This document shows positions 1-43,910 of a stretch of 51,759 bases of DNA, piece after piece. This stretch comes from Escherichia phage vB_EcoD_Fulano1. The notes below the pieces were generated by a model. That model saw nothing but the letters and a program-made list of their open reading frames with translations. It searched no databases and was not told the origin of the DNA. Positions within the stretch are counted from its first letter, which is position 1, and every line of letters begins with the position of its first letter. Both the position numbers and the translations under genes were made by a program. The stretch lies in sequence record OL539459.1; one strand, written 5' to 3'.

Positions 1-49
1 TGCCTGCAATTTGTCTATAATGATGCTTTGTTGTAAAGGAGGGCGCATT

Positions 50-571
50 ATGGCTAAAAACGTTGAGCCAGCAGTAAAGGCTTGCAATTTTAAAAAACTA
101 TATAATAAGCAATATGGCGATATTGCAAAAATGACAAAGGCGCACAAGTACACGCCGGAACAGGTATTTGATCTGGCTGTACGTTACTTTACGTGGGCGG
201 AGGAAAACCATATACAGGCTGCGGAAACGGCATCCTTTCAGGGTGACGTATACGAAAGCAAGATTCACAAGCCGCGAGTGTTCACCTTAAACGGATTCCG
301 ATTATTCGCTGGCCTTTCTGCTTCCGTACTTGAAAAATGGCGACGTGAGCCAGGATTCAGCGATGTTATGGACTTTATCGACGGCGTTGTTTACGAGCAA
401 AAATTCCAGCTTGCTGCAAACAATATTGTTAACGCCGGATTCATTGGTAAGGAGATCGGCATTGAAAAGCCAGCTACCGTTACCATTGAGAATAACACAA
501 GCGCCAGCGTTGACGCTGTAACGGCGGAGGAAGTCAAAGAGGCGGTAATTGACATTCTGGAGAAGATATAA
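50..571 (+). CDS. terminase small subunit (T1-like)
   Basis: ORF track 11..571 trimmed to ATG 50 behind RBS AAGGAGGG (36-43); stop overlaps start of large terminase (ATGA at 571); size and position typical of TerS. Confidence 0.5.
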   Translation: MAKNVEPAVKACNFKKLYNKQYGDIAKMTKAHKYTPEQVFDLAVRYFTWAEENHIQAAETASFQGDVYESKIHKPRVFTLNGFRLFAGLSASVLEKWRREPGFSDVMDFIDGVVYEQKFQLAANNIVNAGFIGKEIGIEKPATVTIENNTSASVDAVTAEEVKEAVIDILEKI

Positions 572-2139
572 TGCTGATTTGGGAAGACTTAACAGCGGCG
601 CAAAAACGCGCCGTTAAGGAAATGAGCGAATATTCATTCGAAAAGATGATCCGCATTTGGTTTCAATTATTGCAAGGTCAGAAATTCTTAGGAAACTGGC
701 ATTTTAGCTACCTATGCAGCGAAGTTGAAAAAATCATCAAAGGAGAGTCACAGAATGTAATTTTCAACATAACGCCAGGCAGCGGTAAAACAGAGATATT
801 CTCGATCCATATGTCACCTTATGCGTCATTGAAAAGTAAGAAGGTGAGAAATCTCAATTTGTCGTTTAGTGATGGCCTTGTCCAGCAGAATAGCAACCGC
901 ATCAAAGAGATTATTGGTTCTCCAGAATGGCAGGAGCTATGGCCTGGAAAGCTGGCAAAGGCGAGCGCAAAGGATTTGATTGTAACCGATGGCGGCAAGG
1001 TTAAATTGCAAGTTAACTCGCGTTCTATCGGTGGTCAGGTTACTGGTCTGCGTGGAGGCTACATGGACGATGGCTTTACTGGTATGCTGGTTCTTGATGA
1101 TCCAGACAAGCCGGATGACATGCTTTCTAAGGTGAAGCGCGAAGCCGGACACATGCGCCTAAAGAACACGGTTCGATCGCGTCGAATGAAGGACACCACG
1201 CCAATTGTGATGGTTCAGCAACGCCTACACGTCAATGATTCAACATGGTTCATGACAAACGGAGGTATGGGCGGCATCCAGTTTAAGGTGGTTAGTATTC
1301 CGGCGCTCGTTACTAAGGAATATCGCGAAACTCTTCCTGATTGGTTAAGGCATGAGTTTGATCGCGATGTTTTGTCCAGCAAGCCAGTAATGATTGATGG
1401 AGTTGCTCATTATTCATTCTGGCCTGCTAAGGAAAGCGCGGAGGAATTACTTGCACTTCGCAATGCTGATCCGTACACGTTCGCTAGTCAGTATCAGCAA
1501 CAGCCTGTTGCGCTTGGCGGTAACGTGTTTAAAACAGAGTGGTTTCAGTATTACGGCAGCAGCGAGAAATGCACGCTACCAAAACCGGATCGCTTTGAAT
1601 ATACATTTATCACGGTTGATACCGCACAGAAAACAGGGGAGCTTAACGACTACTCCGTGATCTGTTATTGGGGGATGTATAAAGATCGCGTTTACTTCAT
1701 TGATGGTGTTCGCGGAAAATGGGAAGCACCAGACCTTGAGACTAATTTTGTTGCGTTCGTTAATCAGTGCTGGAAGCGCAATAAAGAATGCGGAACGTTG
1801 CGAAGGATTCATGTTGAAGATAAATCGTCTGGCACTGGTTTGATTCAGAGTGCAGCGAAAAAAATAATGATCAAGATCAATCCCGTTCAGCGTGATAAAG
1901 ACAAGGTTACTCGCGCAATGGACGCAGCGCCAGTAATGCGCGCCGGACGCGTAGCACTTCCAGAATCGCATCATATGCTGGCTGAGATACTTGCGGAGGT
2001 TGCGGCTTTTGCTTATGATGATTCAGCGCCACACGATGATATTGTGGATACTATAATTGACGCTGTAAACATTGAGCTTAACCTTGCTGATGATGCCGTT
2101 GGTCGAATGAAAAAATTGGCAGGTTTGCGGAACAAATAG
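571..2139 (+). CDS. terminase large subunit
   Basis: 522 aa; P-loop PGSGKT near N-terminus; acidic C-terminal half (DDSAPHDDIVDT) consistent with nuclease domain; first large gene of structural module. Confidence 0.8.
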   Translation: MLIWEDLTAAQKRAVKEMSEYSFEKMIRIWFQLLQGQKFLGNWHFSYLCSEVEKIIKGESQNVIFNITPGSGKTEIFSIHMSPYASLKSKKVRNLNLSFSDGLVQQNSNRIKEIIGSPEWQELWPGKLAKASAKDLIVTDGGKVKLQVNSRSIGGQVTGLRGGYMDDGFTGMLVLDDPDKPDDMLSKVKREAGHMRLKNTVRSRRMKDTTPIVMVQQRLHVNDSTWFMTNGGMGGIQFKVVSIPALVTKEYRETLPDWLRHEFDRDVLSSKPVMIDGVAHYSFWPAKESAEELLALRNADPYTFASQYQQQPVALGGNVFKTEWFQYYGSSEKCTLPKPDRFEYTFITVDTAQKTGELNDYSVICYWGMYKDRVYFIDGVRGKWEAPDLETNFVAFVNQCWKRNKECGTLRRIHVEDKSSGTGLIQSAAKKIMIKINPVQRDKDKVTRAMDAAPVMRAGRVALPESHHMLAEILAEVAAFAYDDSAPHDDIVDTIIDAVNIELNLADDAVGRMKKLAGLRNK

Positions 2140-2153
2140 CACGAATCGACAAA
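2136..2153 (+). promoter_or_regulatory. recurrent element, variant ATAGCACGAATCGACAAA
   Basis: overlaps TerL stop TAG; TATATAAT follows. Confidence 0.3.
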
Positions 2154-2168
2154 CCAATATATAATCAA

Positions 2169-2193
2169 AGGCTGGTGAATCCAGCCTTTTTTA
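2169..2193 (+). terminator. intrinsic terminator
   Basis: stem AGGCTGG/CCAGCCT, loop TGAAT, T-run. Confidence 0.6.
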
Positions 2194-2207
2194 TTGGAGG
2201 AAAGATA

Positions 2208-3488
2208 ATGAGTAAATCACGAATCGTTAAGGCTGATGGCTATAACGAGATCTTTAAAGGCGAGAATTGCAAATCGCGAGTAGAGCAACCATTCTACATG
2301 CAATCAATGCCATACAAGACACTTGCTGACTTTTACGAAAAAGACGGCCTGGCAAAAAGGGTTATTGACGTAGTACCAGAGGAAATGGTTTCCCCTGGCT
2401 TCACGGTTGACGGCGTGGCAGACGAGGCAGCATTCCGTTCTTTGTGGGATGAGAAGCGATTGAATGCAAAAATTATTGATGCGCTTTGCTGGTCGCGTTT
2501 GTTTGGCGGATCTGCAATCATTGCTCTTGTTCAGGATGGGCGGGCGCTCAAATCACCTGTAAAGCCTGGTGCCACGCTGGAAGACGTGCGCGTTTACGAT
2601 CGTTATCAGATTCGCGTTGAAGCGCGAGAAACAAATCCCCGCAAGGTTCGCTATGGTGAGCCAGTGCTTTACACTGTAACGCCAGGAGGAGACTTGCCGG
2701 AATACCAGGTACACTACACGCGCGTTTGCATTATCGACGGTGAGCGGATACCTAACGCAAAGCGACGCAGCAATGACGGCTGGGGTGAGTCAGTTCTTAA
2801 CAAGCGGCTTGTTGAGGCTATTGTTGATTATAACTATTGTGAAACATTAGCTACGCAATTATTGCGAAGAAAACAACAGGCAGTATGGAAGGCCAAAGGT
2901 CTTGCTGACTTGTGCGATGATGAGGAGGGTGTTAGCGCGGCACGCTTGAGACTTGCGCAGGTTGACGACGAGGGCGGCGTTGGCAAGGCCATTGGTATTG
3001 ATGCTGAGGATGAGGAATATGATGTTCTTAACTCTGACATTAGCGGCGTTGATTCTTTTCTGGAAAAGAAAATGGATCGCATCGTTTCCCTTTCAGGTAT
3101 TCATGAAATCATCCTGAAAAATAAAAACGTTGGCGGAGTTAGCGCAAGCCAAAACACGGCGCTTGAAACATTCTATAAACTTATTGAGCGAAAACGCGTC
3201 GAGGATTACAAGCCTATCCTTGAATTTCTATTGCCGTTCATCATTAGTGAGCAGGAATGGAGCATTGAGTTTTCACCTTTGAGCGTACCTAGCGATAAAG
3301 ATCAGGCTGAAATTCTGAATAAGAATATCGACTCAATCAGCAAGGCTATTGATGGTCAGTTCCTTGATGTTGAAGAAGCGCGCGACACGTTGCGAGCAAT
3401 CGCACCAAGCGTTAAACTAAAGGACACCAATAAAATCAAGCTGCCGGAGCCAACTGAGCCGGAGCCAGGCACACAGGGGAATGAGTAA
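2208..3488 (+). CDS. portal protein
   Basis: ORF track 2175..3488 trimmed to ATG 2208 behind GGAGG (2196-2200); ~430 aa gene directly after terminase, acidic C-terminus; position-based call. Confidence 0.65.
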   Translation: MSKSRIVKADGYNEIFKGENCKSRVEQPFYMQSMPYKTLADFYEKDGLAKRVIDVVPEEMVSPGFTVDGVADEAAFRSLWDEKRLNAKIIDALCWSRLFGGSAIIALVQDGRALKSPVKPGATLEDVRVYDRYQIRVEARETNPRKVRYGEPVLYTVTPGGDLPEYQVHYTRVCIIDGERIPNAKRRSNDGWGESVLNKRLVEAIVDYNYCETLATQLLRRKQQAVWKAKGLADLCDDEEGVSAARLRLAQVDDEGGVGKAIGIDAEDEEYDVLNSDISGVDSFLEKKMDRIVSLSGIHEIILKNKNVGGVSASQNTALETFYKLIERKRVEDYKPILEFLLPFIISEQEWSIEFSPLSVPSDKDQAEILNKNIDSISKAIDGQFLDVEEARDTLRAIAPSVKLKDTNKIKLPEPTEPEPGTQGNE

Positions 3489-20991: not shown

Positions 20992-21160
20992 TCTTGTTCT
21001 TTTTGTTATCCGGCGTTCTCAAATCTGCGGAGTCTTAAATTTAGCTCAAAAAGTGAACAACAATAGAGCGCAATACATACAGATAAATATATACATACAT
21101 ATAAATCAATAAGTTAGCAGTATATATATTCATGTTTGTTCTTTATTGTTATCTATGTTT

Positions 21161-21224
21161 TGTGTGATTTTGTGTGTCTGGTGATTTTTCTGTGATTATG
21201 CATGTGTCAGTGGTTATGTGTGTC
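21161..21224. repeat. phased TGTG/GTGATT short direct repeats (~10 bp period)
   Basis: TGTGTGATTT TGTGTGTCTG GTGATTTTTC TGTGATTATG CATGTGTCAG TGGTTATGTG TGTC. Confidence 0.5.
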
Positions 21225-21360
21225 TATATATCTATATCCGGCGCAAATTGAGGAACAAGAGAACAAAAAGACAACAAAGATATTTATCAATCACTTACAT
21301 GTAAGTTTTGTTATCAAAGCTGGCTAGAACGTTGCTAGAACAGAAAAAACAAAATAACTA

Positions 21361-21388
21361 TTGACTAAACGCATCAAATAGCTACAAT
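21361..21388 (+). promoter_or_regulatory. sigma70-like promoter TTGACT-16-TACAAT for recombination operon
   Basis: TTGACT 21361-21366, TACAAT 21383-21388, about 30 nt before ATG 21418. Confidence 0.55.
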
Positions 21389-21417
21389 GCAGACATACCA
21401 ACCAATGAGGGCAAATC

Positions 21418-22479
21418 ATGAATAAGTTTATGGCGTACACCAGCGAAGAAATGAGCAATGAGCTTTATCACGATCCAGAAGCGTGGACGGCTGATTATGT
21501 TAGCGGTTCAAGCCTGGCAGAGATTTACAGCACATGCCCGGCAGCGTGGAAGTTCAAGCCGCGTGACGACAAGAGCAAGGCGCTAGTTTTTGGTACGCAG
21601 TCGCATACCAACTTTGAAAGCAAGGAGCTTTTCGAAAAAACCTATCGCCGTGCGCCAGCACCAGAAGACTTTAAGGATCTGATAACCAGCCAAACGGCGC
21701 TTGCTGCAAAGCTGAAATCATTTGGCCTGAAAGGTACAACCGGAAAGACTTATCCCGAACTTATAAAAATGATGGTTGACTGCGGAGAAGACCTTAACGT
21801 CATGTGGTTAATCGACATGATCGCAGAAAGTCAGGCCAGGGCCGATGGGGTTCAGTTAATAGAGTCTAAAGATTACGATTCGTGCGTGGCAATGCGCCAG
21901 GTTCTGGAATCAATACCGGAACATAACGCATGTATGAATAGCAAGACGGCACAACGTGAATTATCGTTGTTCGGTGAAATTAACGGCGTAAAAGTCAAAG
22001 TGCGATGCGATCACGTTGACGTAACAAAGAACGTCACAGCAACGCTGATTGATGGTTACGATGAAAAAGGTCATCCGATTTGCCGCGATATTATTTATCC
22101 AGAGGCCATTGTGATCACAGACTACAAAACTACAATGAGCGCGAATCCGGCTGAGTTTATGCGCCTGGCTTACAATCACGGCTATTATTTGAAAATGGCG
22201 TTGCAATGTGATTTATTCAGAAAAGCGTATCCAGAAGAAAAGCGACCTATAGTTGTGCGACTGTTAGCGCAAGAGAAGAAAGAGCCTTATTTGCCGTTGG
22301 CTTTCCGCATGAACAGCGAGCAATTGAAGATCGGGCGCATTCAGTACATGAGCGTAATTAACCAGTTTGCCATGTGCCAGCAACATGACGTTTGGCCTTC
22401 GTATTCAAACGGCGAGCCGGAGGTTTGCCTTGATACTCCTGACTGGGTGCGACGCCAGTTTAAGCAATATCTTATTTAA
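21418..22479 (+). CDS. recombination exonuclease (PD-(D/E)xK family)
   Basis: 353 aa; motif VITDYKT; first gene of exo-Erf-SSB operon behind TTGACT-16-TACAAT promoter. Confidence 0.55.
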   Translation: MNKFMAYTSEEMSNELYHDPEAWTADYVSGSSLAEIYSTCPAAWKFKPRDDKSKALVFGTQSHTNFESKELFEKTYRRAPAPEDFKDLITSQTALAAKLKSFGLKGTTGKTYPELIKMMVDCGEDLNVMWLIDMIAESQARADGVQLIESKDYDSCVAMRQVLESIPEHNACMNSKTAQRELSLFGEINGVKVKVRCDHVDVTKNVTATLIDGYDEKGHPICRDIIYPEAIVITDYKTTMSANPAEFMRLAYNHGYYLKMALQCDLFRKAYPEEKRPIVVRLLAQEKKEPYLPLAFRMNSEQLKIGRIQYMSVINQFAMCQQHDVWPSYSNGEPEVCLDTPDWVRRQFKQYLI

Positions 22480-26038: not shown

Positions 26039-27898
26039 TTAACTCTCAAGAGTTGTAGGCTTGTTGATCAATGCAGAAACAGCCGCTTTCAGTTCTTCAA
26101 CCTCCTTTTCAAGTTTTGATATTCTTTCTTTGTTTTCAACGTCACGCGCACGTAGAGCCTTTATTGCAGCTAGACCATCCATCAGCAGCGGATTAATGTC
26201 AAGAGTCATAATTCCAGATACAGAATCGCTATGAACATACTCCCTATCTATCATCATGGCATCTTGAGCTATTATTCCGCGTCTTGCGCTCCTTTCGTTG
26301 CTATCAAATGTATACCTAAATAATTTGAAGTTCATCCTTGATATATTATCAAGCGCGCATTCAACATTAAGATTTCCTTTAACATCTTTGAATCTAATAT
26401 CAGACGTTCCAGACTTCTGTAATGTGTTCCACGGCGTAGTTGTTTTTGCTACCTTCGGATCTCCTGTATTGTTATATCTAGTGTATGCATTCCCTGCCGT
26501 ATCAATCCAGAATTGAAATATCCTGTATTTATCATAGGATGATTGAAAACCGCCTCCATTTGTAGCAGCCCACGTAGTAAGACCTTCATTATCACTTATA
26601 AACTGACATCCGGAGTTTGTTATATCATTAGCAAGGTTTTTTACTTGACCAACTCCATATTTTGATGCTACAGGATGCCAAACCCAACCACTCCACCTCC
26701 ACGAATCAGAAACCTTGTCATAACTCCTTGAATAGTAAGATGGATCGTCAATAGGGTAATAATATTGATTTGCCTGTTCCGATCCGTTTGCTGTGGAGCT
26801 TGTAACCAGAAGAACACCGGCTTTTTGTACTGGATAGTTATTTTGAGGAGTTGCGTTAGCATTTGCACCCTGATAGTAATAACCAAAATTACTATAACCA
26901 TATAAGTCATTTAGGTTTCCGCTTAATACACCTCTTTGCTGCCTCATTAAATTTAGGTTGTCTCTTACCGACTCGACTGATTTTGATCCTGTTCCTCCTT
27001 TGCTTATCGGCAAAGCTATATCACTCTGTGATGTAGAATCCCACACACCCCAATTGCCATCATTTTTTACAAAAATTCGTTTTGTTCCATCAGCACTTGA
27101 AACAGCAGTCTCTCCAGATGCACCAGTGCCCTGCACCAACCTGTCTACGCTTAGGTTTTTTCTTGCTTCACCTTTATCTGCAACATCGCTAAGGTTGTTG
27201 TTTTTGTTAAGCATATTTTCCGGATTTATGCTATCTGCATATTCTTTCGCCTTATCTTCAGAAGCCTTAGCGGCATTTTTTGATGTCAGGGCGTCAGAAG
27301 CAGATCTGGCAGCTTCGCTTTTGCTTGTATTAGCCGCGATTTCAGAGTTTTTTGCATTAGTCTCTGACGCCTTTGCTGCGATCTTGCTCGCGTTGGCTGC
27401 GTTTTCTGACTCTTTGGCTTTAGTCTCTGACGCTTTTGCTTCGTTCTTTGAATTAAGCGCATCAGAGGCAGATCTTGCTGCGGCATCCTTACTTTGATTC
27501 GCAGACGCTGCGTTTTCTTCCACCTGTTTAGCCAAATCCTGATAATGCTTCCAATCAAACGTCTTAAAAAATTCCAGCGCTTCCCCGATCTCTGATTCTT
27601 TACTCTGATAGTAGCGCAATGTTTCAGCTACATCTTGAGCAAGCCCATCAACAGTTATTGAGTCATGAAGCAAGATTGCGTAATTTGAGCGAGTAACTAC
27701 CGCACCTCCAGTTGTAATTGCACGAATGCTTGTATCGTTGATAACTTCAGTTATTACAGCGATTTGTAACGGCTGAGTTAAGAATACAATGGTCGCACCA
27801 GGGCGAATGAGTGTTAGTTGCTCTCGCCATTTTGTGTCGTATCCAGTGATATAACCTTGTGCGTCCATTGACGCTTGTCCGGTTCTGTAAATTGCCAT
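26039..27898 (-). CDS. side tail fibre protein with C-terminal intramolecular chaperone-like domain
   Basis: trimmed to ATG 27898 behind GGGAGA; Ala/Ser/Lys repeat shaft, Trp/Tyr-rich distal domain, C-terminal coiled coil. Confidence 0.6.
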   Translation of the reverse strand: MAIYRTGQASMDAQGYITGYDTKWREQLTLIRPGATIVFLTQPLQIAVITEVINDTSIRAITTGGAVVTRSNYAILLHDSITVDGLAQDVAETLRYYQSKESEIGEALEFFKTFDWKHYQDLAKQVEENAASANQSKDAAARSASDALNSKNEAKASETKAKESENAANASKIAAKASETNAKNSEIAANTSKSEAARSASDALTSKNAAKASEDKAKEYADSINPENMLNKNNNLSDVADKGEARKNLSVDRLVQGTGASGETAVSSADGTKRIFVKNDGNWGVWDSTSQSDIALPISKGGTGSKSVESVRDNLNLMRQQRGVLSGNLNDLYGYSNFGYYYQGANANATPQNNYPVQKAGVLLVTSSTANGSEQANQYYYPIDDPSYYSRSYDKVSDSWRWSGWVWHPVASKYGVGQVKNLANDITNSGCQFISDNEGLTTWAATNGGGFQSSYDKYRIFQFWIDTAGNAYTRYNNTGDPKVAKTTTPWNTLQKSGTSDIRFKDVKGNLNVECALDNISRMNFKLFRYTFDSNERSARRGIIAQDAMMIDREYVHSDSVSGIMTLDINPLLMDGLAAIKALRARDVENKERISKLEKEVEELKAAVSALINKPTTLES

Positions 27899-27951
27899 GC
27901 GTTTTCTCCCATGTTGCATGTTAATGTCAATGCAGATAATAGCATTTGCTA

Positions 27952-27980
27952 AGGCCAAAAAAAACCCCGCAATGCGGGGT
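27952..27980 (-). terminator. intrinsic terminator (minus strand)
   Basis: minus strand CCCCGC-ATT-GCGGGG then T9. Confidence 0.75.
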
Positions 27981-27996: not shown

Positions 27997-28929
27997 TTAG
28001 AGAAGTGATTCAGGCTTGTAAACCTTTCTCTCCATCCCTTGCCTGTAATTATCATTAATCGGCATCATAATTTCAAGTCCTCTTTCCTCTGCGGCAATGA
28101 TCGAGTCACGGTCTGTACTCTTACAGACAACTCTCATTCTTCTGTTTCCCTTATACCTGTAAGCCACAATCTCAATGTTAGTTGCATCAAAGCAGGCCCA
28201 AACCTCTTGACCAGTTGCAAGGTGAATATGTTGCGCATCAATCCAGTCAACGCAAAGATAGATCGTCTTATCGGTGCTTCCTGTTCTCACAACCGACCCG
28301 CGCGTGTAGTCCTTTGCGAGAAAAGACTGTTTACCATCTTCATCAATGAAAAGCACATTGCACATTTCATCATCAATATCATCGGAATGCACCAGGTAAC
28401 ATGGTAACGCGTGAATGTATCGACCATCTTTAACGCCGCATTCATAATAACCATTTTCAGGAGGATATATCCCTTCATAGGTGCTTAACGGCGTGCGATC
28501 AAATTTTAGTGTTTTTGACATAACGCGCTCGCAGCATTCATGGCTTGCCTGCTTCCCAAACGAATAACCAGAATCACGAGATACTCTCTTATTTGCCTTG
28601 ATCCTATAGTCCTGCGGAACTTTTCCAAGAAAGCGGCCCAAAATATTGATCACTTCGCTGTAAGGTTCTCCGGTTAGCTTCATGATCCAACCAATTCCAG
28701 TATCGTTTCCGCACACATTGCAGATAGCGCCGCCGTCGCCTTTTTTATCTCCAAGTTTATCAGTCCATCTAAAGCGATCCTTTCCGCCGCAGTGGGGGCA
28801 AGATTGATGCTTGCCGTTAAAAACTTCATTTGGAAGACCACAAATACTTTGTAGCGCCTCACGCCATAATCCCTGCATATATGGGAGAACATCTTCCTTT
28901 TGATAAACCATAAAGTTTTCGTTATTCAT
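27997..28929 (-). CDS. putative DNA primase (zinc-ribbon containing)
   Basis: trimmed to ATG 28929 behind GAGGTG; Cys cluster CPHCGGKDRFRW...CNVCG; acidic stretch HSDDIDDE. Confidence 0.45.
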   Translation of the reverse strand: MNNENFMVYQKEDVLPYMQGLWREALQSICGLPNEVFNGKHQSCPHCGGKDRFRWTDKLGDKKGDGGAICNVCGNDTGIGWIMKLTGEPYSEVINILGRFLGKVPQDYRIKANKRVSRDSGYSFGKQASHECCERVMSKTLKFDRTPLSTYEGIYPPENGYYECGVKDGRYIHALPCYLVHSDDIDDEMCNVLFIDEDGKQSFLAKDYTRGSVVRTGSTDKTIYLCVDWIDAQHIHLATGQEVWACFDATNIEIVAYRYKGNRRMRVVCKSTDRDSIIAAEERGLEIMMPINDNYRQGMERKVYKPESLL

Positions 28930-28984: not shown

Positions 28985-29458
28985 TTAGCAATTAGTGCTT
29001 TCAGGTTTATACAGGAATCCGCCAGGTTCATAATCTGACATTCTTACCACTCGCAACATTTCACGCTTATCACATCTCTTTGTGAGCGGTTTGCCATTGG
29101 AATCAAATCGCAGGTCTGGACGACAGAATGATGCGCGATAGCCTTGACATCCATATTTTTTGTAATCGTTATGCACCTTTTGAGCGCCAGCGGCTGAAAT
29201 CATACCACGAACGCGCCACTGATTTACAGTTTGCTGGCTAACGTTAAGACGTTTTGCCATTGCTGACACGCTTCCGTAATACTCAATAAGGATGTCAAGT
29301 CGCGCTTTTAGTCCGGCGCGCACTTCATCTTTTAAAACATAGTATCCCGTAGGGCGCTTGCGCTTCTTCTTGTCCTTGCCTCTTCGAGTTCCGTTATTGC
29401 CATTAATTGTGCGCTTGTCAATCTTTCCTGTTGATACTGCGATTCGTTGCTCTTTCAT
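28985..29458 (-). CDS. HTH DNA-binding protein (putative regulator)
   Basis: 157 aa; basic N-terminus RRGKDKKKRKRP; helix-turn-helix-like MAKRLNVSQQTVNQWR; divergent from helicase gene. Confidence 0.5.
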   Translation of the reverse strand: MKEQRIAVSTGKIDKRTINGNNGTRRGKDKKKRKRPTGYYVLKDEVRAGLKARLDILIEYYGSVSAMAKRLNVSQQTVNQWRVRGMISAAGAQKVHNDYKKYGCQGYRASFCRPDLRFDSNGKPLTKRCDKREMLRVVRMSDYEPGGFLYKPESTNC

Positions 29459-37506: not shown

Positions 37507-39090
37507 TTACCCCAGCAATGTTGGATTTACGAAAACAACGCCATTAATCACACAAATATAATTTCTTTCTTCAAGCATCGGCAGCAGTTGCGTTTCCATA
37601 CGCTTCATTACGCCAGCCTGACCAACAAACGGCTTAACTTTTCGTGCAGCCTCATATATGGCGCGCACATTCAAGATCCCCTTGTTAGCCTTACCGTGTC
37701 GAGTGATAATCTCGATTAGTTTACCCATTTCAGCATCATCACCAGCATAGCCAGAAGCGTTTGCGGCGCTAATGTATGTTTTGCTCAACTCGCTAAACAT
37801 CAGTAGTGCTTCCTGAACGGTTTCAACCTCAATCTCTTTCGACTTTTGAGGGTATCCGCCAGGATTAAACCAATTGCGGATAGTGTGCAAAACCGAAGCA
37901 ATTCTGATCACCTGCTTATCCATTTTGCCAAGCGCGCCGCGCAGCATTGTATGAGAATACTTTCCGCCATCGGCAAGGTGCGGTTCCATCTCCTGACGAG
38001 CCATGTTAAGCACTCGCATTGCTGATTTGCTGATCTTAAGCTGGATGTTTGATTCGCTCATTATGTTATGGATCAGCTTAAAATATTGGCTTTTCAGTTC
38101 TCCATCAACAGGCTCATAAGTCGAATCACCGTTATCATCAACAAACTTTCGACGACCTAAAAATGATTCCTCACGCACAAGCAAATAACGCTCACTTACA
38201 CCGATACCGCGTGATCCTGCGTCCATGATGGCATTGATTGTTTCATCCTGGGCAATTACCGCCATGCAGCCAAGAGCTTTAAAACTCATATTGTTGTCAG
38301 CGTTTGCACGAGCTATAGAAACATGACCATGATCCCATGCTTTTAGCACAAGTTCGCTGTTTGTTTTGCGTTCGCTATTGGCATATGTCAGGCCTAAAAG
38401 GCTGTTAATACTCGTTGCCTCGTCTGAAATTACAGCAAAGTTACCCTGGCGATTGTTGATTCTTGCAAGTCCTTCAGGCGTGGTGTCTGAAACAGGGAAA
38501 ACAATGTCACACATCTTTTCCAGCTTTTCTTCAAGATCTTCTTTCTCCTGGTATAGCGATTCCATATCAGCGCCAGATCGCTCGCTTTTCATCTCTTTTG
38601 CAAGACCTGCCAACTTTGCCTGAATCTTTTTTCGTTCCTTCTTTCGCTGATCATTAATTCTTTCTACCTCAGCAACCATAGGAGCAAGTGCCAGGCTGTT
38701 AACGGCAGATTTACCAGTTGAAGGAGGCTGACTTGTAACAACGTAAAGAGCAGTTGGTTGATCCGTTCCGTGATACTCAACCGTGAAGCGTCCAAGCATT
38801 GCAGCAGACACGCAGCCGATAAAATGCATATATGCCGATGATTCAGGGAACTGAACTGATCGAGCAATGTTGCGCGCCAACTTACCAACAACATCAACAT
38901 CATTGCCAAGAGAAATTATAGGGTAGCGATCGTTTCCGTTATTAACATCATTAACCTCACCCCAAAAGCTGGACGATTGACGGTATCCGTTTGCCTGAAT
39001 GGACACGCGCACCGGAGATAATCCTTGTGCATCAGCTAATTCGATAATTTGTTTTGGTGTTAGTTTATTGGTTTCAAACGAAAAATTCAT
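37507..39090 (-). CDS. P-loop NTPase (putative replication/helicase-like ATPase)
   Basis: 527 aa; Walker A PPSTGKS, Walker B-like VISDEATS; function not resolved. Confidence 0.4.
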   Translation of the reverse strand: MNFSFETNKLTPKQIIELADAQGLSPVRVSIQANGYRQSSSFWGEVNDVNNGNDRYPIISLGNDVDVVGKLARNIARSVQFPESSAYMHFIGCVSAAMLGRFTVEYHGTDQPTALYVVTSQPPSTGKSAVNSLALAPMVAEVERINDQRKKERKKIQAKLAGLAKEMKSERSGADMESLYQEKEDLEEKLEKMCDIVFPVSDTTPEGLARINNRQGNFAVISDEATSINSLLGLTYANSERKTNSELVLKAWDHGHVSIARANADNNMSFKALGCMAVIAQDETINAIMDAGSRGIGVSERYLLVREESFLGRRKFVDDNGDSTYEPVDGELKSQYFKLIHNIMSESNIQLKISKSAMRVLNMARQEMEPHLADGGKYSHTMLRGALGKMDKQVIRIASVLHTIRNWFNPGGYPQKSKEIEVETVQEALLMFSELSKTYISAANASGYAGDDAEMGKLIEIITRHGKANKGILNVRAIYEAARKVKPFVGQAGVMKRMETQLLPMLEERNYICVINGVVFVNPTLLG

Positions 39091-42412: not shown

Positions 42413-42658
42413 TCATTGTTGATCGTGTTTAACGGCCATCAGAACATCACAGGACTCGTTAATAAATTTTGCCATGCGCTTATCATCACCAGCAGGGATT
42501 AGCGCGTTAAACTCGCGTTTGCTACTGAATACCGTCACTTTATGAAACGATGCGAACGGCATCGACGGGAACTCGACTGTTTGCGTCAAGATCCGCAATC
42601 CCATCTTTTTGGCCCTTACCTGGGCCTCAGCGAGTTCAAAATCCACTTCATTAATCAT
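42413..42658 (-). CDS. hypothetical protein
   Basis: 81 aa ORF. Confidence 0.35.
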   Translation of the reverse strand: MINEVDFELAEAQVRAKKMGLRILTQTVEFPSMPFASFHKVTVFSSKREFNALIPAGDDKRMAKFINESCDVLMAVKHDQQ

Positions 42659-42927
42659 TTCTTGATCTCCTCAGCAATAAACTTCAGGACTTTGCGCAAA
42701 AACACTTCATTATTGATGGTCGCTGGCAATTCCTCTTTCACTTCTTGCGGCAGGTAAACGTTGCCATGCCAGGTTAAGCAATCGTAGTTGATACGATAAG
42801 AGCAAAGCCACTCGCAATCGTTATCCGCTTCCCAAATGCAGAGTTGCAGAACATCACCGAAATCCTCAACAGTCAGATCCAGACCGTGACGCTTTGCAAA
42901 GTTGAAAGTGGTTTTGCTGATGTTCAT
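42655..42927 (-). CDS. hypothetical protein
   Basis: 90 aa ORF. Confidence 0.35.
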   Translation of the reverse strand: MNISKTTFNFAKRHGLDLTVEDFGDVLQLCIWEADNDCEWLCSYRINYDCLTWHGNVYLPQEVKEELPATINNEVFLRKVLKFIAEEIKK

Positions 42928-42975
42928 TGCTATCTCCTGATGGCTATCTCGTTTCGATGAGATAACTATACCAGG

Positions 42976-43212
42976 TTATTCCGATCGCGCTTTAACAAAA
43001 AGTGCTATTTGCTGACTGGTCATTATTCCATCTATTCCATTAATCAGGAATAACAGGAATAATTCATTCGCGATCACCTGGATTGTGAGACTTTGAGTTT
43101 GATCAATTTTAATCAGTTGATTAACTTTTTGTGTGGAGGGGATAGAGAAACGCGGCCCTCTTGCGTCCTTTCCAGCAATCCTGGCGCGCGCATCTGTTAT
43201 TTCTGTTCCCAA
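42976..43212 (-). CDS. questionable ORF (may be non-coding leader)
   Basis: 78 aa; contains dyad repeat 43022-43063 and recurrent element 42991-43008. Confidence 0.2.
   Translation of the reverse strand: MGTEITDARARIAGKDARGPRFSIPSTQKVNQLIKIDQTQSLTIQVIANELFLLFLINGIDGIMTSQQIALFVKARSE
42991..43008 (-). promoter_or_regulatory. recurrent element ATAGCACTTTTTGTTAAA
   Basis: ~70 nt upstream of ATG 42927; not at a stop codon here. Confidence 0.35.
43022..43063. repeat. dyad-symmetric element with ATTCC/GGAAT half-sites
   Basis: ATTATTCC (43022-43029), ATTCC (43034-43038), centre ATTAAT, GGAAT (43047-43051), GGAATAAT (43056-43063). Confidence 0.5.
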
Positions 43213-43549
43213 TGTTATCTCAAATAAGCCTCCGCACTTTTAGATAACAGAAACGGCGTTCATCAACAAAAAGAACAAAATAAAATTTATATATATACCC
43301 ATAAAATCAATAAGTTAGTTATATATGTATTTATATTTGTTATTTACTGTTATGCTTGTTCTGTGGGTATGTGGTGGGTGTTGATGATTCCTTCATTTAA
43401 CATTTGTACTTTTTATGCGGTTATATATATAGATTTTGCGGCATTATCGAGACAACCAGTGAACGAGATTGAACGAGCTTTAAAATCAATCACTTGCGCG
43501 CAATTTTGTTATCGCGTCAAAAAAAGATGTTATTAGAACGAAAAATCAG

Positions 43550-43578
43550 TTGACTACCTGGCTGTGAGTATTGATAAT
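43550..43578 (+). promoter_or_regulatory. sigma70-like promoter TTGACT-17-GATAAT for rightward early operon
   Basis: TTGACT 43550-43555, GATAAT 43573-43578, 33 nt before ATG 43611. Confidence 0.55.
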
Positions 43579-43610
43579 GCACGCAGACAAAACGAAAAGG
43601 GAGACAGCAC

Positions 43611-43910
43611 ATGACAAAAATGCTTGCAATAAACCGAAAACTTGAAGTGAAAGAGATGTCACAAGATGATATTGATGATTTGGCGCGCGGCATGACAACA
43701 GGTTACATGCGGAGAATTGTCAATCACTTGATTAACTCTGAACGAAATAAGGCCGTATACATCAGCATAAATCACGCTGGAGGGAATGCTGCATCAATGC
43801 GACAGATGATTAACAACGTGGCAAAAGAGTTAAATGTTGATGTTAAGACGTTTGTTGTTGATGGATTCCTGGGCCTGGTAATACTTGAAGTTAACGAAGC
43901 GTTTGCATAA
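43611..43910 (+). CDS. hypothetical early protein
   Basis: 99 aa, first gene behind TTGACT-17-GATAAT promoter, RBS AAGGGAG. Confidence 0.4.
   Translation: MTKMLAINRKLEVKEMSQDDIDDLARGMTTGYMRRIVNHLINSERNKAVYISINHAGGNAASMRQMINNVAKELNVDVKTFVVDGFLGLVILEVNEAFA

What the first reader, a model, noticed from the sequence alone, without database searches (positions are those of the whole stretch)
43290..43600. Divergent control region B, the second copy of the duplicated regulatory module
Contains AAATCAATAAGTTAG at 43304-43318, direct repeat GTGAACGAGATTGAACGAGC (43459-43478), ATCAATCACTT-GCGCGC-AATTTTGTTATC (43485-43513) and promoter TTGACT(43550)-17-GATAAT(43573). It is flanked on the left by the dyad ATTCC/GGAAT element at 43022-43063. 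See region A for the shared blocks.
Basis: seen in the sequence. Interest (0 to 1): 0.6.

Follow-up and report, generated by a model that had tools for sequence, protein, structure and literature searches.

The report
Duplicated origin-like control module, T1-like phage
Region B is one of two related, roughly 420-base non-coding modules in a T1-like phage genome; each joins an early promoter to IHF sites, short repeats and the most easily melted DNA in the genome, which makes them the best candidates for this phage family's still unidentified replication origins.

Summary
Region B (43195-43610) is homologous to region A (20993-21417): local alignment score 97 against 21.6 +/- 2.5 for shuffles.

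The window is a complete Hanrivervirus (T1-like, Drexlerviridae) genome. Both modules share one architecture:
- a left arm of short repeats (TGTTC / TGTTATC)
- a (TA)n - perfect IHF site - (TA)n core, which is the least stable duplex in the genome
- a T/G-rich spacer and a third (TA)n run
- a right arm of inverted repeats (GAAC[AG])
- a second perfect IHF site and TTTTGTTATC
- a near-consensus sigma-70 promoter

Other genera of the family keep two modules per genome but use different repeats: CGGAGGAT, GTAAGAT, GGGACAAA, GTGTAACA. Within a genome, A and B share the same repeat. In some genera the module lacks the sigma-70 promoter or the divergent gene context.

The phage encodes a P4-alpha-like primase and a protein predicted to be an MCM-like helicase with a winged-helix tail.

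My best reading (about 0.45) is an origin of the "repeats flanking an AT-rich unwinding element" type, coupled to an early promoter. The main rival (about 0.3) is a purely transcriptional, IHF-assisted control region.

The ATTCC/GGAAT dyad lies in a B-only insert where the T1 and TLS records place the pac end. No experiment exists for any of this.

The parts
42965..43010 (-). Leftward promoter of the neighbouring gene (42655-42927). It consists of the family-wide 21-nt repeat AAATAGCACTTTTTGTTAAAG (43010-42990) plus a -10 hexamer TATAGT (42970-42965).
   Evidence: All 16 such repeats in the window are followed by a -10-like hexamer about 38 nt after ATAGCAC. The repeat itself was described for TLS with unknown function.
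43011..43194 (.). Insert found only in copy B. It holds the ATTCC/GGAAT dyad (43022-43063), the palindrome TTAATCAGTTGATTAA (about 43110-43125), three GATC sites, and a motif conserved across genera, GAGGGGATAGAG (43136-43147). It is the probable neighbourhood of the pac (packaging start) end.
   Evidence: Absent from region A. Coordinate 1 of the T1 record, which starts its terminal-repeat feature 1..2800, falls about 40 nt to the right of T1's own ATTCC/GGAAT dyad. The TLS record starts at its mapped pac site in the same interval. The G29-2 record starts at the position equivalent to window 43144. The ORF 42976-43212(-) that relatives annotate here shows no codon-position bias: 13/11/14 variable sites, against 4/0/24 in the neighbouring gene.
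43195..43287 (.). Left arm of the shared module. Short repeats: TGTTAT (43195), TGTTC (43204), TGTTATC (43213), GATAACA (43243), GAACA (43273).
   Evidence: Region A has matching elements at matching offsets.
43288..43326 (+). Core: (TA)5 run (43288-43297), perfect IHF consensus AATCAATAAGTTA (43305-43317), second TA run (43320-43326).
   Evidence: The least stable 60-, 100- and 200-nt windows of the whole genome sit here (z 4.4-4.9). Region A's core ranks second and the third-ranked site reaches only z 3.4. There are no variable sites in 43255-43344 among four relatives. The same IHF site sits at the same offset in region A and in other genera.
43327..43431 (+). T/G-rich spacer carrying TGTTAT x2 and TGTTC (43338-43361), ending in a third (TA)n run (43422-43431). 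A mosaic breakpoint lies at about 43378-43383.
   Evidence: Composition over 43318-43428 is T58 G23 A21 C9; region A gives T61 G26 A19 C9. Most relatives stay 91-98% identical (one clade about 80%) up to about 43378-43383 and then diverge. No excess RNA folding on either strand (z +1.4 and +0.2).
43459..43478 (+). Right-arm direct repeat GTGAACGAGA / TTGAACGAGC, period 10. The GAAC[AG] units point the opposite way to the left-arm TGTTC units.
   Evidence: Equivalents at the same place: region A has GGAACAAGAGAACAA; TLS has GTGAACACGTGAACA; T1 has CGATTAACA x3.
43484..43513 (+). Second perfect IHF consensus AATCAATCACTTG (43484-43496), palindrome TTGCGCGCAA (43494-43503), and the conserved block TTTTGTTATC (43504-43513).
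   Evidence: The two IHF sites are 179 nt apart in B and 181 nt apart in A. Upstream of recE, Tunavirus relatives keep an IHF consensus about 80 nt before the -35 hexamer in which only the four N positions vary. The ATCA..ACTT and TTTTGT blocks are conserved in 34 unique region-A sequences.
43528..43539 (+). Promoter-proximal repeats TGTTAT (43528) and TAGAAC (43534).
   Evidence: Region A has TAGAAC x2 at the equivalent place.
43550..43578 (+). Sigma-70 promoter TTGACT - 17 nt - GATAAT. The inferred transcription start is near 43585.
   Evidence: Of the 16 sites in the window scoring at least 10 of 12, I placed three upstream of a gene start in non-coding DNA: this one, 21361(+) and 29537(-). 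I did not map the other 13 against gene boundaries. They match TLS P01, P51 and P57. Relatives have TTGACA - 17 nt - GATAAT at the same place.
43597..43910 (+). Ribosome-binding site AAGGGAG (43597-43603) and the first gene of the rightward operon (43611-43910, 99 aa, PHROG family 28623, function unknown).
20993..21417 (+). Region A, the paralogous module upstream of the RecE-like exonuclease gene (21418-22479).

Best explanation
Region B (43195-43610) and region A (20993-21417) are two copies of a cis-acting module that most likely serves as a replication origin of this T1-like phage and also carries an early promoter.

Proposed mechanism. Only the sequence anatomy is shown; every functional step is inferred.
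1. A phage-encoded DNA-binding protein binds the short repeats, which point in opposite directions on either side of the core. Candidates are the predicted MCM-like helicase with a winged-helix tail (37507-39090) and the Cro/YdaS-like helix-turn-helix protein (28985-29458).
2. Host IHF bends the DNA at two in-phase sites about 180 bp apart. One of these sites is embedded in the (TA)n core.
3. That core is the most easily melted DNA in the genome, and it opens. Negative supercoiling from the divergent leftward and rightward promoters would help.
4. The helicase and the P4-alpha-like primase (27997-28929) load there, and host polymerase copies the DNA.
5. The sigma-70 promoter at the right end (43550-43578) also transcribes the rightward early operon.

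Having two copies would parallel SPP1 oriL/oriR or P4 ori/crr.
For: Two copies with the same anatomy:
- A and B are homologous and their elements line up one for one.
- Clusters of (TA)n mark the two modules as the two densest sites in each of T1, TLS, slyngel and morffagbaw. They are the only such sites in T1 and TLS; slyngel and morffagbaw also have two weaker clusters each, in their structural genes.
- The two cores are the two least stable duplex segments of the 51.8-kb genome.
- They are also the two largest ORF-free stretches.

Lineage-specific repeats shared by A and B within a genome:
- Ec_L1: CGGAGG[AG]T, 9 copies in A and 8 in B, against 2 elsewhere in about 44 kb.
- Webervirus-like contigs: GTAAGAT, 10 copies in A against 0-4 in the rest of a 20-kb locus, and also present in B.
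- L122: GGGACAAA, 11 against 1, arranged as >> >> [AT-rich] << <<.
- T1: TGTAACA, 6 against 0.
- In the window and in TLS, the repeats are inverted on the two sides of the AT-rich centre.

The module is separable from the promoter context:
- In Ec_L1, L133 and L122, module A lies directly downstream of the primase gene and has no canonical sigma-70 promoter.

Replication proteins:
- The primase is homologous to the P4 alpha primase domain (E = 2e-13).
- SaPI origins are described as 6-12 short repeats on both sides of an AT-rich centre, pointing in opposite directions, read by the winged-helix tail of a self-loading SF3 or MCM-like helicase (PMC9371898).

No competing origin is known:
- Two papers report that no origin was found in T1-like phages (PMC11447400; PMC7718038).
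Against: - There is no experimental evidence of any kind.
- In the window's own lineage the repeats are short (5-7 nt), degenerate and only modestly enriched. TGTTATC occurs 6 times in the modules and 9 times outside.
- The binding protein is unresolved. The helicase's winged-helix segment changes little between lineages with very different repeats. The recognition helix of the helix-turn-helix protein varies more, which fits a repressor as well as an initiator.
- Each module sits directly upstream of an operon and, in this lineage, ends in a promoter. A purely transcriptional role explains its position equally well.
- The right half of module B is exchanged among close relatives together with the downstream gene, which is how a promoter cassette behaves.
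- IHF consensus sites are not perfect in every genus; TLS has one-mismatch sites.
- The shared modules contain no GATC and no DnaA box, so they are unlike oriC.
- Phage origins can also lie inside genes, and I did not search for that.
Confidence: 0.45

Rival explanations
1. The module is a purely transcriptional control region for the early promoters, and A and B are a pair in the manner of lambda OL/OR. IHF bound about 95-105 bp upstream of the start site, together with the upstream easily melted (TA)n DNA, boosts the sigma-70 promoter. This could work by bending upstream DNA onto RNA polymerase, or by passing supercoil-driven destabilisation to the -10 region as proposed for E. coli ilvPG. 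The short repeats would be operators through which the phage's Cro/YdaS-like protein later shuts off or tunes early transcription.
For: - Near-consensus sigma-70 promoters end both modules and are conserved across genera at a fixed distance from recE.
- Of the 16 strong consensus matches in the window, the three I placed upstream of a gene start are these two and the one before the helix-turn-helix regulator gene, matching TLS P01, P51 and P57.
- An IHF consensus is kept about 66-79 nt upstream of the -35 hexamer, and in Tunavirus only its N positions vary.
- The regulator has a Cro/YdaS-like helix-turn-helix, and its recognition helix differs between lineages that have different repeats.
- In T1 region B, repeat copies overlap the -10 region and the leader.
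- L122 has palindromic TTTGTCCttGGACAAA units that look like operators.
Against: - A stretch of 350-400 nt carrying 8-11 repeats on both sides of the least stable DNA in the genome is far more than known early promoters use.
- In Ec_L1, L133 and L122 the module persists although the downstream promoter is the family's other, 21-nt-repeat type.
- In the window no repeat overlaps the -35 or -10 hexamer.
- The repeat motif is absent from the regulator's own promoter region in T1 and Ec_L1, so the autoregulation typical of Cro-like proteins is not seen.
Confidence: 0.3
2. The module is part of the DNA packaging signal: a pac site with IHF-assisted terminase binding, as in P1 pac or lambda cosB.
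For: The T1 and TLS records place the pac end only about 100-200 nt to the left of the shared module in copy B. IHF sites are typical of cos and pac regions (own knowledge).
Against: - Region A has the full shared module but lacks the B-specific insert where the ends map.
- T1-like phages show a single pac fragment.
- The mapped ends lie outside the shared part.
- Small-terminase identity does not track the dyad motif: window versus T1 is 55% identical yet shares the dyad, while window versus L056 is 74% identical yet has a different motif.
Confidence: 0.05
3. The module encodes a small RNA or a small protein.
For: It contains small ORFs, 43363-43536(+) and 43517-43693(-), and relatives annotate hypothetical proteins nearby.
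Against: - No Rfam family matches.
- Predicted folding is no better than shuffled sequence on either strand.
- The ORF annotated in relatives shows no codon-position bias.
- Conservation is in short blocks, not in reading frames.
Confidence: 0.04
4. It is AT-rich filler at a junction of gene modules, and the similarity of A and B is only a leftover of an old duplication with no function.
For: A mosaic breakpoint lies inside the module at about 43380.
Against: - The architecture and the two-copy state are kept across genera whose repeats differ completely.
- The core is more conserved than the neighbouring coding DNA.
- A and B evolve in concert within each lineage.
Confidence: 0.03

Closest known systems
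SaPI (staphylococcal pathogenicity island) replication origins with a self-loading Rep helicase
   Same: Both have several short repeats on each side of a central AT-rich region, with the two sides pointing in opposite directions. Both elements encode a separate primase and an SF3 or MCM-like helicase with a C-terminal winged-helix domain (PMC9371898).
   Different: - The SaPI origin lies immediately downstream of rep and is a single copy. Here there are two copies, each several kb from the helicase gene.
- IHF sites and an attached sigma-70 promoter are present here.
- Helicase binding to the repeats is untested, and its winged-helix segment does not visibly co-vary with the repeats.
Satellite phage P4 ori plus crr
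   Same: Both have two separated cis regions carrying the same short repeat. The TLS repeat GTGAACA resembles the P4 type-1 repeat TGTTCACC. The phage primase is homologous to the P4 alpha primase domain.
   Different: - The P4 octamer is not enriched in the window: one GGTGAACA in the genome, and it is outside the modules.
- The phage helicase shows no sequence similarity to the helicase or origin-binding part of alpha.
- P4 ori and crr differ from each other in layout, whereas A and B are co-linear copies.
Bacillus phage SPP1 oriL / oriR (own knowledge, not checked here)
   Same: SPP1 is also a pac-type siphovirus with two separated origins that share repeats bound by one phage initiator next to AT-rich DNA.
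   Different: The initiator family is different (G38P). One SPP1 origin lies inside a gene. No IHF is involved.
IHF-activated sigma-70 promoters: E. coli ilvPG UAS1, lambda pL, Mu Pe (own knowledge)
   Same: An IHF site lies roughly 90-100 bp upstream of the start site, with AT-rich, supercoil-sensitive DNA further upstream.
   Different: Those regions are about 100-200 bp long, single-copy, and lack lineage-specific repeat arrays.
TLS promoters P01 and P51 (Supplementary Table S1 of PMC11447400)
   Same: These are the same two promoters in a related phage. P01 (523-549) lies at the right end of the TLS region B and P51 (29110-29137) at the right end of its region A.
   Different: That paper lists only the promoter hexamers. 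It does not describe the upstream duplicated module and states that no origin-type repeats were found.

Membership tests
Origin built of short repeats (iterons) plus an unwinding element (SaPI / plasmid / lambda type) | Multiple copies of a short, element-specific repeat concentrated at the site | tested here: met
   Strong in relatives: CGGAGG[AG]T 17 versus 2, GTAAGAT 10 versus 0-4, GGGACAAA 11 versus 1, TGTAACA 6 versus 0. Modest in the window: TGTTATC 6 versus 9, AGAACAA 5 versus 8.
Origin built of short repeats (iterons) plus an unwinding element (SaPI / plasmid / lambda type) | An AT-rich, easily unwound segment next to or between the repeats | tested here: met
   The cores of B and A are the two least stable segments of the genome at 60-, 100- and 200-nt windows, z 4.1-4.9. 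This is a nearest-neighbour energy sum, not a supercoil-dependent calculation.
Origin built of short repeats (iterons) plus an unwinding element (SaPI / plasmid / lambda type) | Repeats on both sides of the AT-rich centre in opposite orientation (SaPI type) | tested here: met
   In window A and B, GAAC[AG] units are mostly '<' on the left and '>' on the right, at parallel offsets. TLS shows the same. L122 shows >> >> [AT] << <<. Orientation is mixed in Ec_L1.
Origin built of short repeats (iterons) plus an unwinding element (SaPI / plasmid / lambda type) | A cognate initiator encoded by the element binds the repeats | not testable with these tools
   Candidates exist: the MCM-like helicase with a winged-helix tail and the helix-turn-helix protein. 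Co-variation analysis did not separate them.
Origin built of short repeats (iterons) plus an unwinding element (SaPI / plasmid / lambda type) | Replication starts there, or the fragment confers replication | not testable with these tools
   Needs marker-frequency sequencing or a plasmid test for origin function.
P4 ori/crr | Type-1 repeat TGTTCACC bound by the C-terminal domain of alpha | tested here: not met
   The octamer occurs once in the window, at 279 and outside the modules. The helicase shows no similarity to alpha residues 263-777. Only the primase domain is shared.
DnaA-dependent, oriC-like origin | Clustered DnaA boxes and GATC sites | tested here: not met
   No TTWTNCACA box in either module; the genome has 4 against 7.6 expected. 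The shared modules contain no GATC, against 5.4 per kb genome-wide.
IHF-assisted sigma-70 promoter region | Sigma-70 -35/-10 hexamers in front of a gene that has a ribosome-binding site | tested here: met
   TTGACT - 17 nt - GATAAT, 10 of 12 matches. The ribosome-binding site AAGGGAG lies 7 nt before the ATG at 43611. The promoter is conserved in relatives.
IHF-assisted sigma-70 promoter region | An IHF consensus site upstream, conserved in position | tested here: met
   Perfect sites at 43305 and 43484, and at 21104 and 21285 in A. Conserved at the same offsets in relatives, with variation confined to the N positions in Tunavirus. TLS has only near-consensus sites.
IHF-assisted sigma-70 promoter region | Promoter activity depends on IHF | not testable with these tools
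   Needs ihf mutant hosts or in-vitro transcription.
Lambda OL/OR-type operator pair | Operators overlap the core promoter elements | tested here: not met
   In the window the nearest repeats end 10 nt upstream of the -35 hexamer. In T1 region B some copies do overlap the -10 region and the leader.
pac site (applies to the B-only insert 43011-43194, not to the shared module) | The mature genome end of the first headful maps there | tested here: inconclusive
   The T1 record's terminal-repeat start and the TLS restriction-mapped pac site fall in the homologous interval. Nothing is known for this phage. How the G29-2 record was linearised is unclear. The dyad does not co-vary with the small terminase.

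The most novel reading that the evidence does not exclude
Regions A and B are the long-sought replication origins of T1-like phages (Drexlerviridae). They would be a pair of co-evolving origins built of short repeats around an unwinding element, recognised by a phage-specific protein with help from IHF and fired by a bacterial-virus MCM-like helicase plus a P4-type primase. Copy B would additionally be wired to the early promoter and placed next to the pac site, so that early transcription, initiation of replication and the start of packaging are organised from one roughly 600-bp region.
Probability: 0.4. Interest if true: 0.7.

Novelty: new member of a known kind. Interest (0 to 1): 0.58.

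Why it matters
T1 is one of the founding model phages, and T1-like phages are common laboratory contaminants and phage-therapy candidates. Even so, two recent genome papers state that no replication origin could be found in them.

This analysis gives two precise, testable candidates per genome. It also gives a comparative rule for finding them in any member of the family: two (TA)n clusters flanked by a lineage-specific repeat.

It links those candidates to a predicted MCM-like helicase with a winged-helix tail, a type of initiator so far characterised mainly in staphylococcal islands.

If instead the module proves to be purely transcriptional, it would still define the early-promoter control logic and the role of host IHF in this family. 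Knowing the origin, early promoters and pac region would also help in engineering these phages.

Tried and rejected
- **Structured RNA:** no Rfam match in the whole window, and folding of 43300-43545 is no better than shuffles on either strand.
- **Protein coding:** the ORF 42976-43212(-) annotated in relatives has no third-position bias. The small ORFs inside the module were treated as spurious on the basis of block-wise rather than frame-wise conservation.
- **Copies outside phages:** no match to region A in plasmids and no match to region B in 5,426 E. coli genomes. No satellite or plasmid was found that borrows the module.
- **P4 alpha link for the DUF3987 helicase:** no sequence similarity and no PDB sequence hit. 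Only the primase domain is related.
- **oriC-like features:** no DnaA boxes and no GATC cluster.
- **GC skew:** it simply follows the direction of transcription and adds nothing independent.
- **Which protein reads the repeats:** I compared sliding identity along four replication proteins, the recognition helix of the helix-turn-helix protein across 68 loci, and the helicase winged-helix segment across 25 loci. Everything co-diverges with lineage and I found no discordant case, so the question is unresolved.
- **Dyad as small-terminase binding site:** terminase identity does not track the motif, so I kept this only as a guess.
- **Literature:** nine searches and seven papers found no description of the duplicated module or of a T1-family origin. 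The 2004 T1 genome paper is not in the library.

Full report
**What the window is.** The 51,759-bp window is a complete genome of a T1-like siphovirus. It starts at the small terminase gene. Its closest record is Escherichia phage morffagbaw (95% identity over the query region), and close relatives such as slyngel and G29-2 are classified as Hanrivervirus (Tempevirinae, Drexlerviridae). Gene order matches T1 and TLS.

**The observation.** The claim of a duplicated module holds.
- The repeat finder pairs 21103-21164 with 43304-43365 at 81% identity.
- A pairwise alignment shows co-linear blocks across about 420 nt.
- The local alignment score is 97 against 21.6 +/- 2.5 for dinucleotide shuffles. 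Other AT-rich stretches of the same genome score about 20.
- Region B carries an extra insert of about 185 nt (43011-43194) that region A lacks. The ATTCC/GGAAT dyad lies inside that insert.

**Anatomy.** The blocks AAATCAATAAGTTAG and ATCAATCACTT are perfect matches to the IHF consensus WATCAANNNNTTR. B has sites at 43305 and 43484; A has sites at 21104 and 21285. All four are on the + strand, spaced 179 and 181 nt apart. The genome holds 12 such sites against 4.8 expected, and four of them fall in 1.6% of the sequence (P = 3e-5).

The first IHF site is bracketed by (TA)n runs. Eleven of the 21 TATATA hexamers in the genome lie in the two modules. By nearest-neighbour energies, the cores of B (about 43262-43360) and A (about 21071-21170) are the two least stable segments of the genome at 60-, 100- and 200-nt windows (z 4.1-4.9; the next site reaches z 3.4).

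After the core comes a strongly T/G-rich spacer. Short repeats flank the core: TGTTC and TGTTAT(C) mostly on the left, GAAC[AG] on the right, at parallel offsets in A and B. The module ends with TTTTGTTATC, TAGAAC and the sigma-70 promoter.

Other properties:
- A and B are the two largest ORF-free stretches in the genome.
- The shared modules contain no GATC, against 5.4 per kb genome-wide, and no DnaA box.
- No RNA family matches, and folding shows no excess stability.
- The ORF that relatives annotate across the B-only insert has no codon-position bias, 13/11/14 variable sites against 4/0/24 in the neighbouring gene. The segment 43255-43344 is invariant among four relatives.

**Comparative evidence.** I collected region A from 45 and then 80 IMG/VR contigs through the RecE-like gene, region B through the small terminase and the helicase, and whole genomes of T1, TLS, slyngel, morffagbaw and most of Ec_L1.
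1. **Two modules per genome.** (TA)n clusters mark the two modules as the densest sites in every complete genome examined. slyngel and morffagbaw also have two weaker clusters each, in their structural genes.
2. **The promoter is conserved.** TTGACT-16-TA[CT]AAT sits 56-62 nt before the recE start in most genera. It corresponds to TLS promoter P51, and region B's promoter corresponds to P01. The TLS authors found only three intergenic sigma-70 promoters. In the window I placed three of the 16 strong consensus matches upstream of a gene start: 21361, 43550, and 29537 before the helix-turn-helix regulator gene.
3. **The IHF sites show a footprint.** Hanrivervirus keeps both. Another clade keeps the first. 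Tunavirus keeps an inverted site 141 nt before recE in which only the four unspecified positions vary among 15 sequences. TLS has one-mismatch versions.
4. **The flanking repeats are lineage-specific, but A and B share them within a genome.** Ec_L1 has CGGAGG[AG]T (9 + 8 copies against 2 elsewhere). Webervirus-like contigs have GTAAGAT. L122 has GGGACAAA arranged as >> >> [AT-rich] << <<. T1 has TGTAACA/GTGTAAC and GATTAACA. TLS has GTGAACA/TGGAACA.
5. **The module is separable from its promoter context.** In Ec_L1, L133 and L122, module A lies directly after the primase gene on the same strand. Its downstream promoter is of the family's other type: the 21-nt repeat plus a -10 hexamer. The conserved core is therefore the repeats plus the (TA)n centre, not the sigma-70 promoter or the divergent context.
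6. **A mosaic junction lies inside B.** Most Hanrivervirus relatives are 91-98% identical (one clade about 80%) up to about 43378-43383 and then diverge together with the first downstream gene. The replacement sequence has the same layout.

**The replication proteins.**
- The primase (27997-28929) is homologous to the primase domain of P4 alpha (E = 2e-13).
- The 527-residue DUF3987 protein annotated as a helicase (37507-39090) has no sequence match in the PDB and none to P4 alpha.
- A Cro/YdaS-like helix-turn-helix protein is encoded between the primase and an SF2 helicase.

**Interpretation.** The anatomy is short element-specific repeats on both sides of the most easily melted DNA, partly in opposite orientation, in a phage that has its own primase and an MCM-like helicase with a winged-helix tail. 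This is what is described for SaPI origins and their self-loading Rep helicases (PMC9371898). Two separated cis regions with the same repeats recall P4 ori/crr, which is annotated in the P4 record, and SPP1 oriL/oriR (own knowledge). Two papers say that no origin has been found in T1-like phages.

I therefore rank "replication origin coupled to an early promoter" first, at about 0.45. The inferred steps are: a phage protein binds the repeats, IHF bends the DNA at two in-phase sites, the (TA)n core opens with help from divergent transcription, and the helicase and primase load.

The main rival, at about 0.3, is a purely transcriptional upstream region. IHF-assisted activation together with operators for the Cro-like protein would explain the promoter linkage, the position of the second IHF site, and the variable recognition helix of that protein. 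It explains less well the size, the repeat arrays, and the persistence of the module without the sigma-70 promoter.

I could not resolve which protein reads the repeats. A packaging role for the shared module, an RNA or protein product, and non-functional filler are all unlikely.

**The flanking dyad.** The T1 record starts its 2.8-kb terminal-repeat feature about 40 nt to the right of T1's own ATTATTCC...GGAAT...GGAATAAT element. The TLS record starts at the restriction-mapped pac site in the same interval: a HindIII site at 5876 matches the paper's 5,882 bp. G29-2 starts at the equivalent of window 43144, inside a motif conserved across genera (GAGGGGATAGAG), but how that record was linearised is unclear. 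The B-only insert is thus probably the pac neighbourhood. The idea that the dyad is the small-terminase binding site is not supported by co-variation.

**Verdict.** The feature is a real module under selection, and I found no description of it in the accessible literature. It belongs to a known kind, repeat-flanked unwinding element or promoter control region. It gives a concrete, testable answer to the open question of where T1-like phages start replication.

Noticed in passing
window, 16 sites: + strand 29472, 31996, 33037, 44646, 45639, 47053, 48370, 49718; - strand 43008, 42132, 41480, 40081, 39162, 20991, 10171, 6410: Every copy of the family's 21-nt repeat (aaATAGCACnnnTTGnTAAAA) is followed at a fixed distance by a -10-like hexamer (TATAAT, CATAAT, TATAGT and similar), about 38 nt after ATAGCAC, often preceded by TG or GG. 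The TLS paper lists the function of this repeat as an open question. The repeat therefore spans about -52 to -31, and its TTGnTA lies 5 nt too far upstream to act as a normal -35. It looks like the upstream half of a second promoter class that may need a phage factor or act as an UP-like element.
   Followed up: partly
window 43011-43194: This insert, found only in copy B, holds the ATTCC/GGAAT dyad, three GATC sites, the palindrome TTAATCAGTTGATTAA (which contains an IHF consensus on the - strand at 43110-43122), and the motif GAGGGGATAGAG, which is conserved in Hanrivervirus, T1, L056 and Ec_L1. The T1, TLS and G29-2 records all start within the homologous interval, so this is probably the pac region.
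   Followed up: partly
window 42976-43212 (-): The ORF here is annotated as a hypothetical protein in morffagbaw and slyngel. It overlaps the leftward promoter and the pac-region insert and shows no codon-position bias (13/11/14 variable sites). It is probably not a gene.
   Followed up: yes
[not shown]
   Followed up: partly
window 29537-29510 (-), upstream of 28985-29458: The third canonical sigma-70 promoter that I placed upstream of a gene start (TTGAGT-16-TATAAT) drives the Cro/YdaS-like helix-turn-helix protein and the primase. It matches TLS P57. The recognition helix of that protein differs between genera (SQQTVNQWRVR, SNQTVQGWKER, NLKTVWGWKER, SHATLYEWRKR, SIQVVQQWRKR).
   Followed up: partly
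window about 43378-43383: There is a sharp mosaic junction inside module B. Most relatives are 91-98% identical to the left of it. To the right, through the first gene (43611-43910), only four records match.
   Followed up: partly
window 21294-21305 and 43494-43503: Directly after the second IHF site each copy has a different perfect palindrome at the same position: CTTACATGTAAG in A and TTGCGCGCAA in B. The outer CTT/AAG is kept and the centre is changed. This is not conserved in TLS or more distant relatives.
   Followed up: no
phage collection, accessions MG0656xx (for example A16a, A123, A118): About 20 GenBank records named 'Campylobacter phage', with host Campylobacter jejuni, are about 93% identical to this T1-like coliphage region. 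They look like mislabelled or contaminating coliphage genomes.
   Followed up: no
window 27312-27437: A tandem 63-nt repeat (two copies, 76% identity) lies inside the large - strand ORF 26039-27958, which is in the tail-fibre region.
   Followed up: no
L064 and L133 (Ec_L1 and Webervirus-like contigs): In these genera the recE-erf-ssb operon and module A sit directly downstream of the primase gene, giving a primase-then-module adjacency. In Ec_L1 the whole block is inverted relative to the tail genes.
   Followed up: partly
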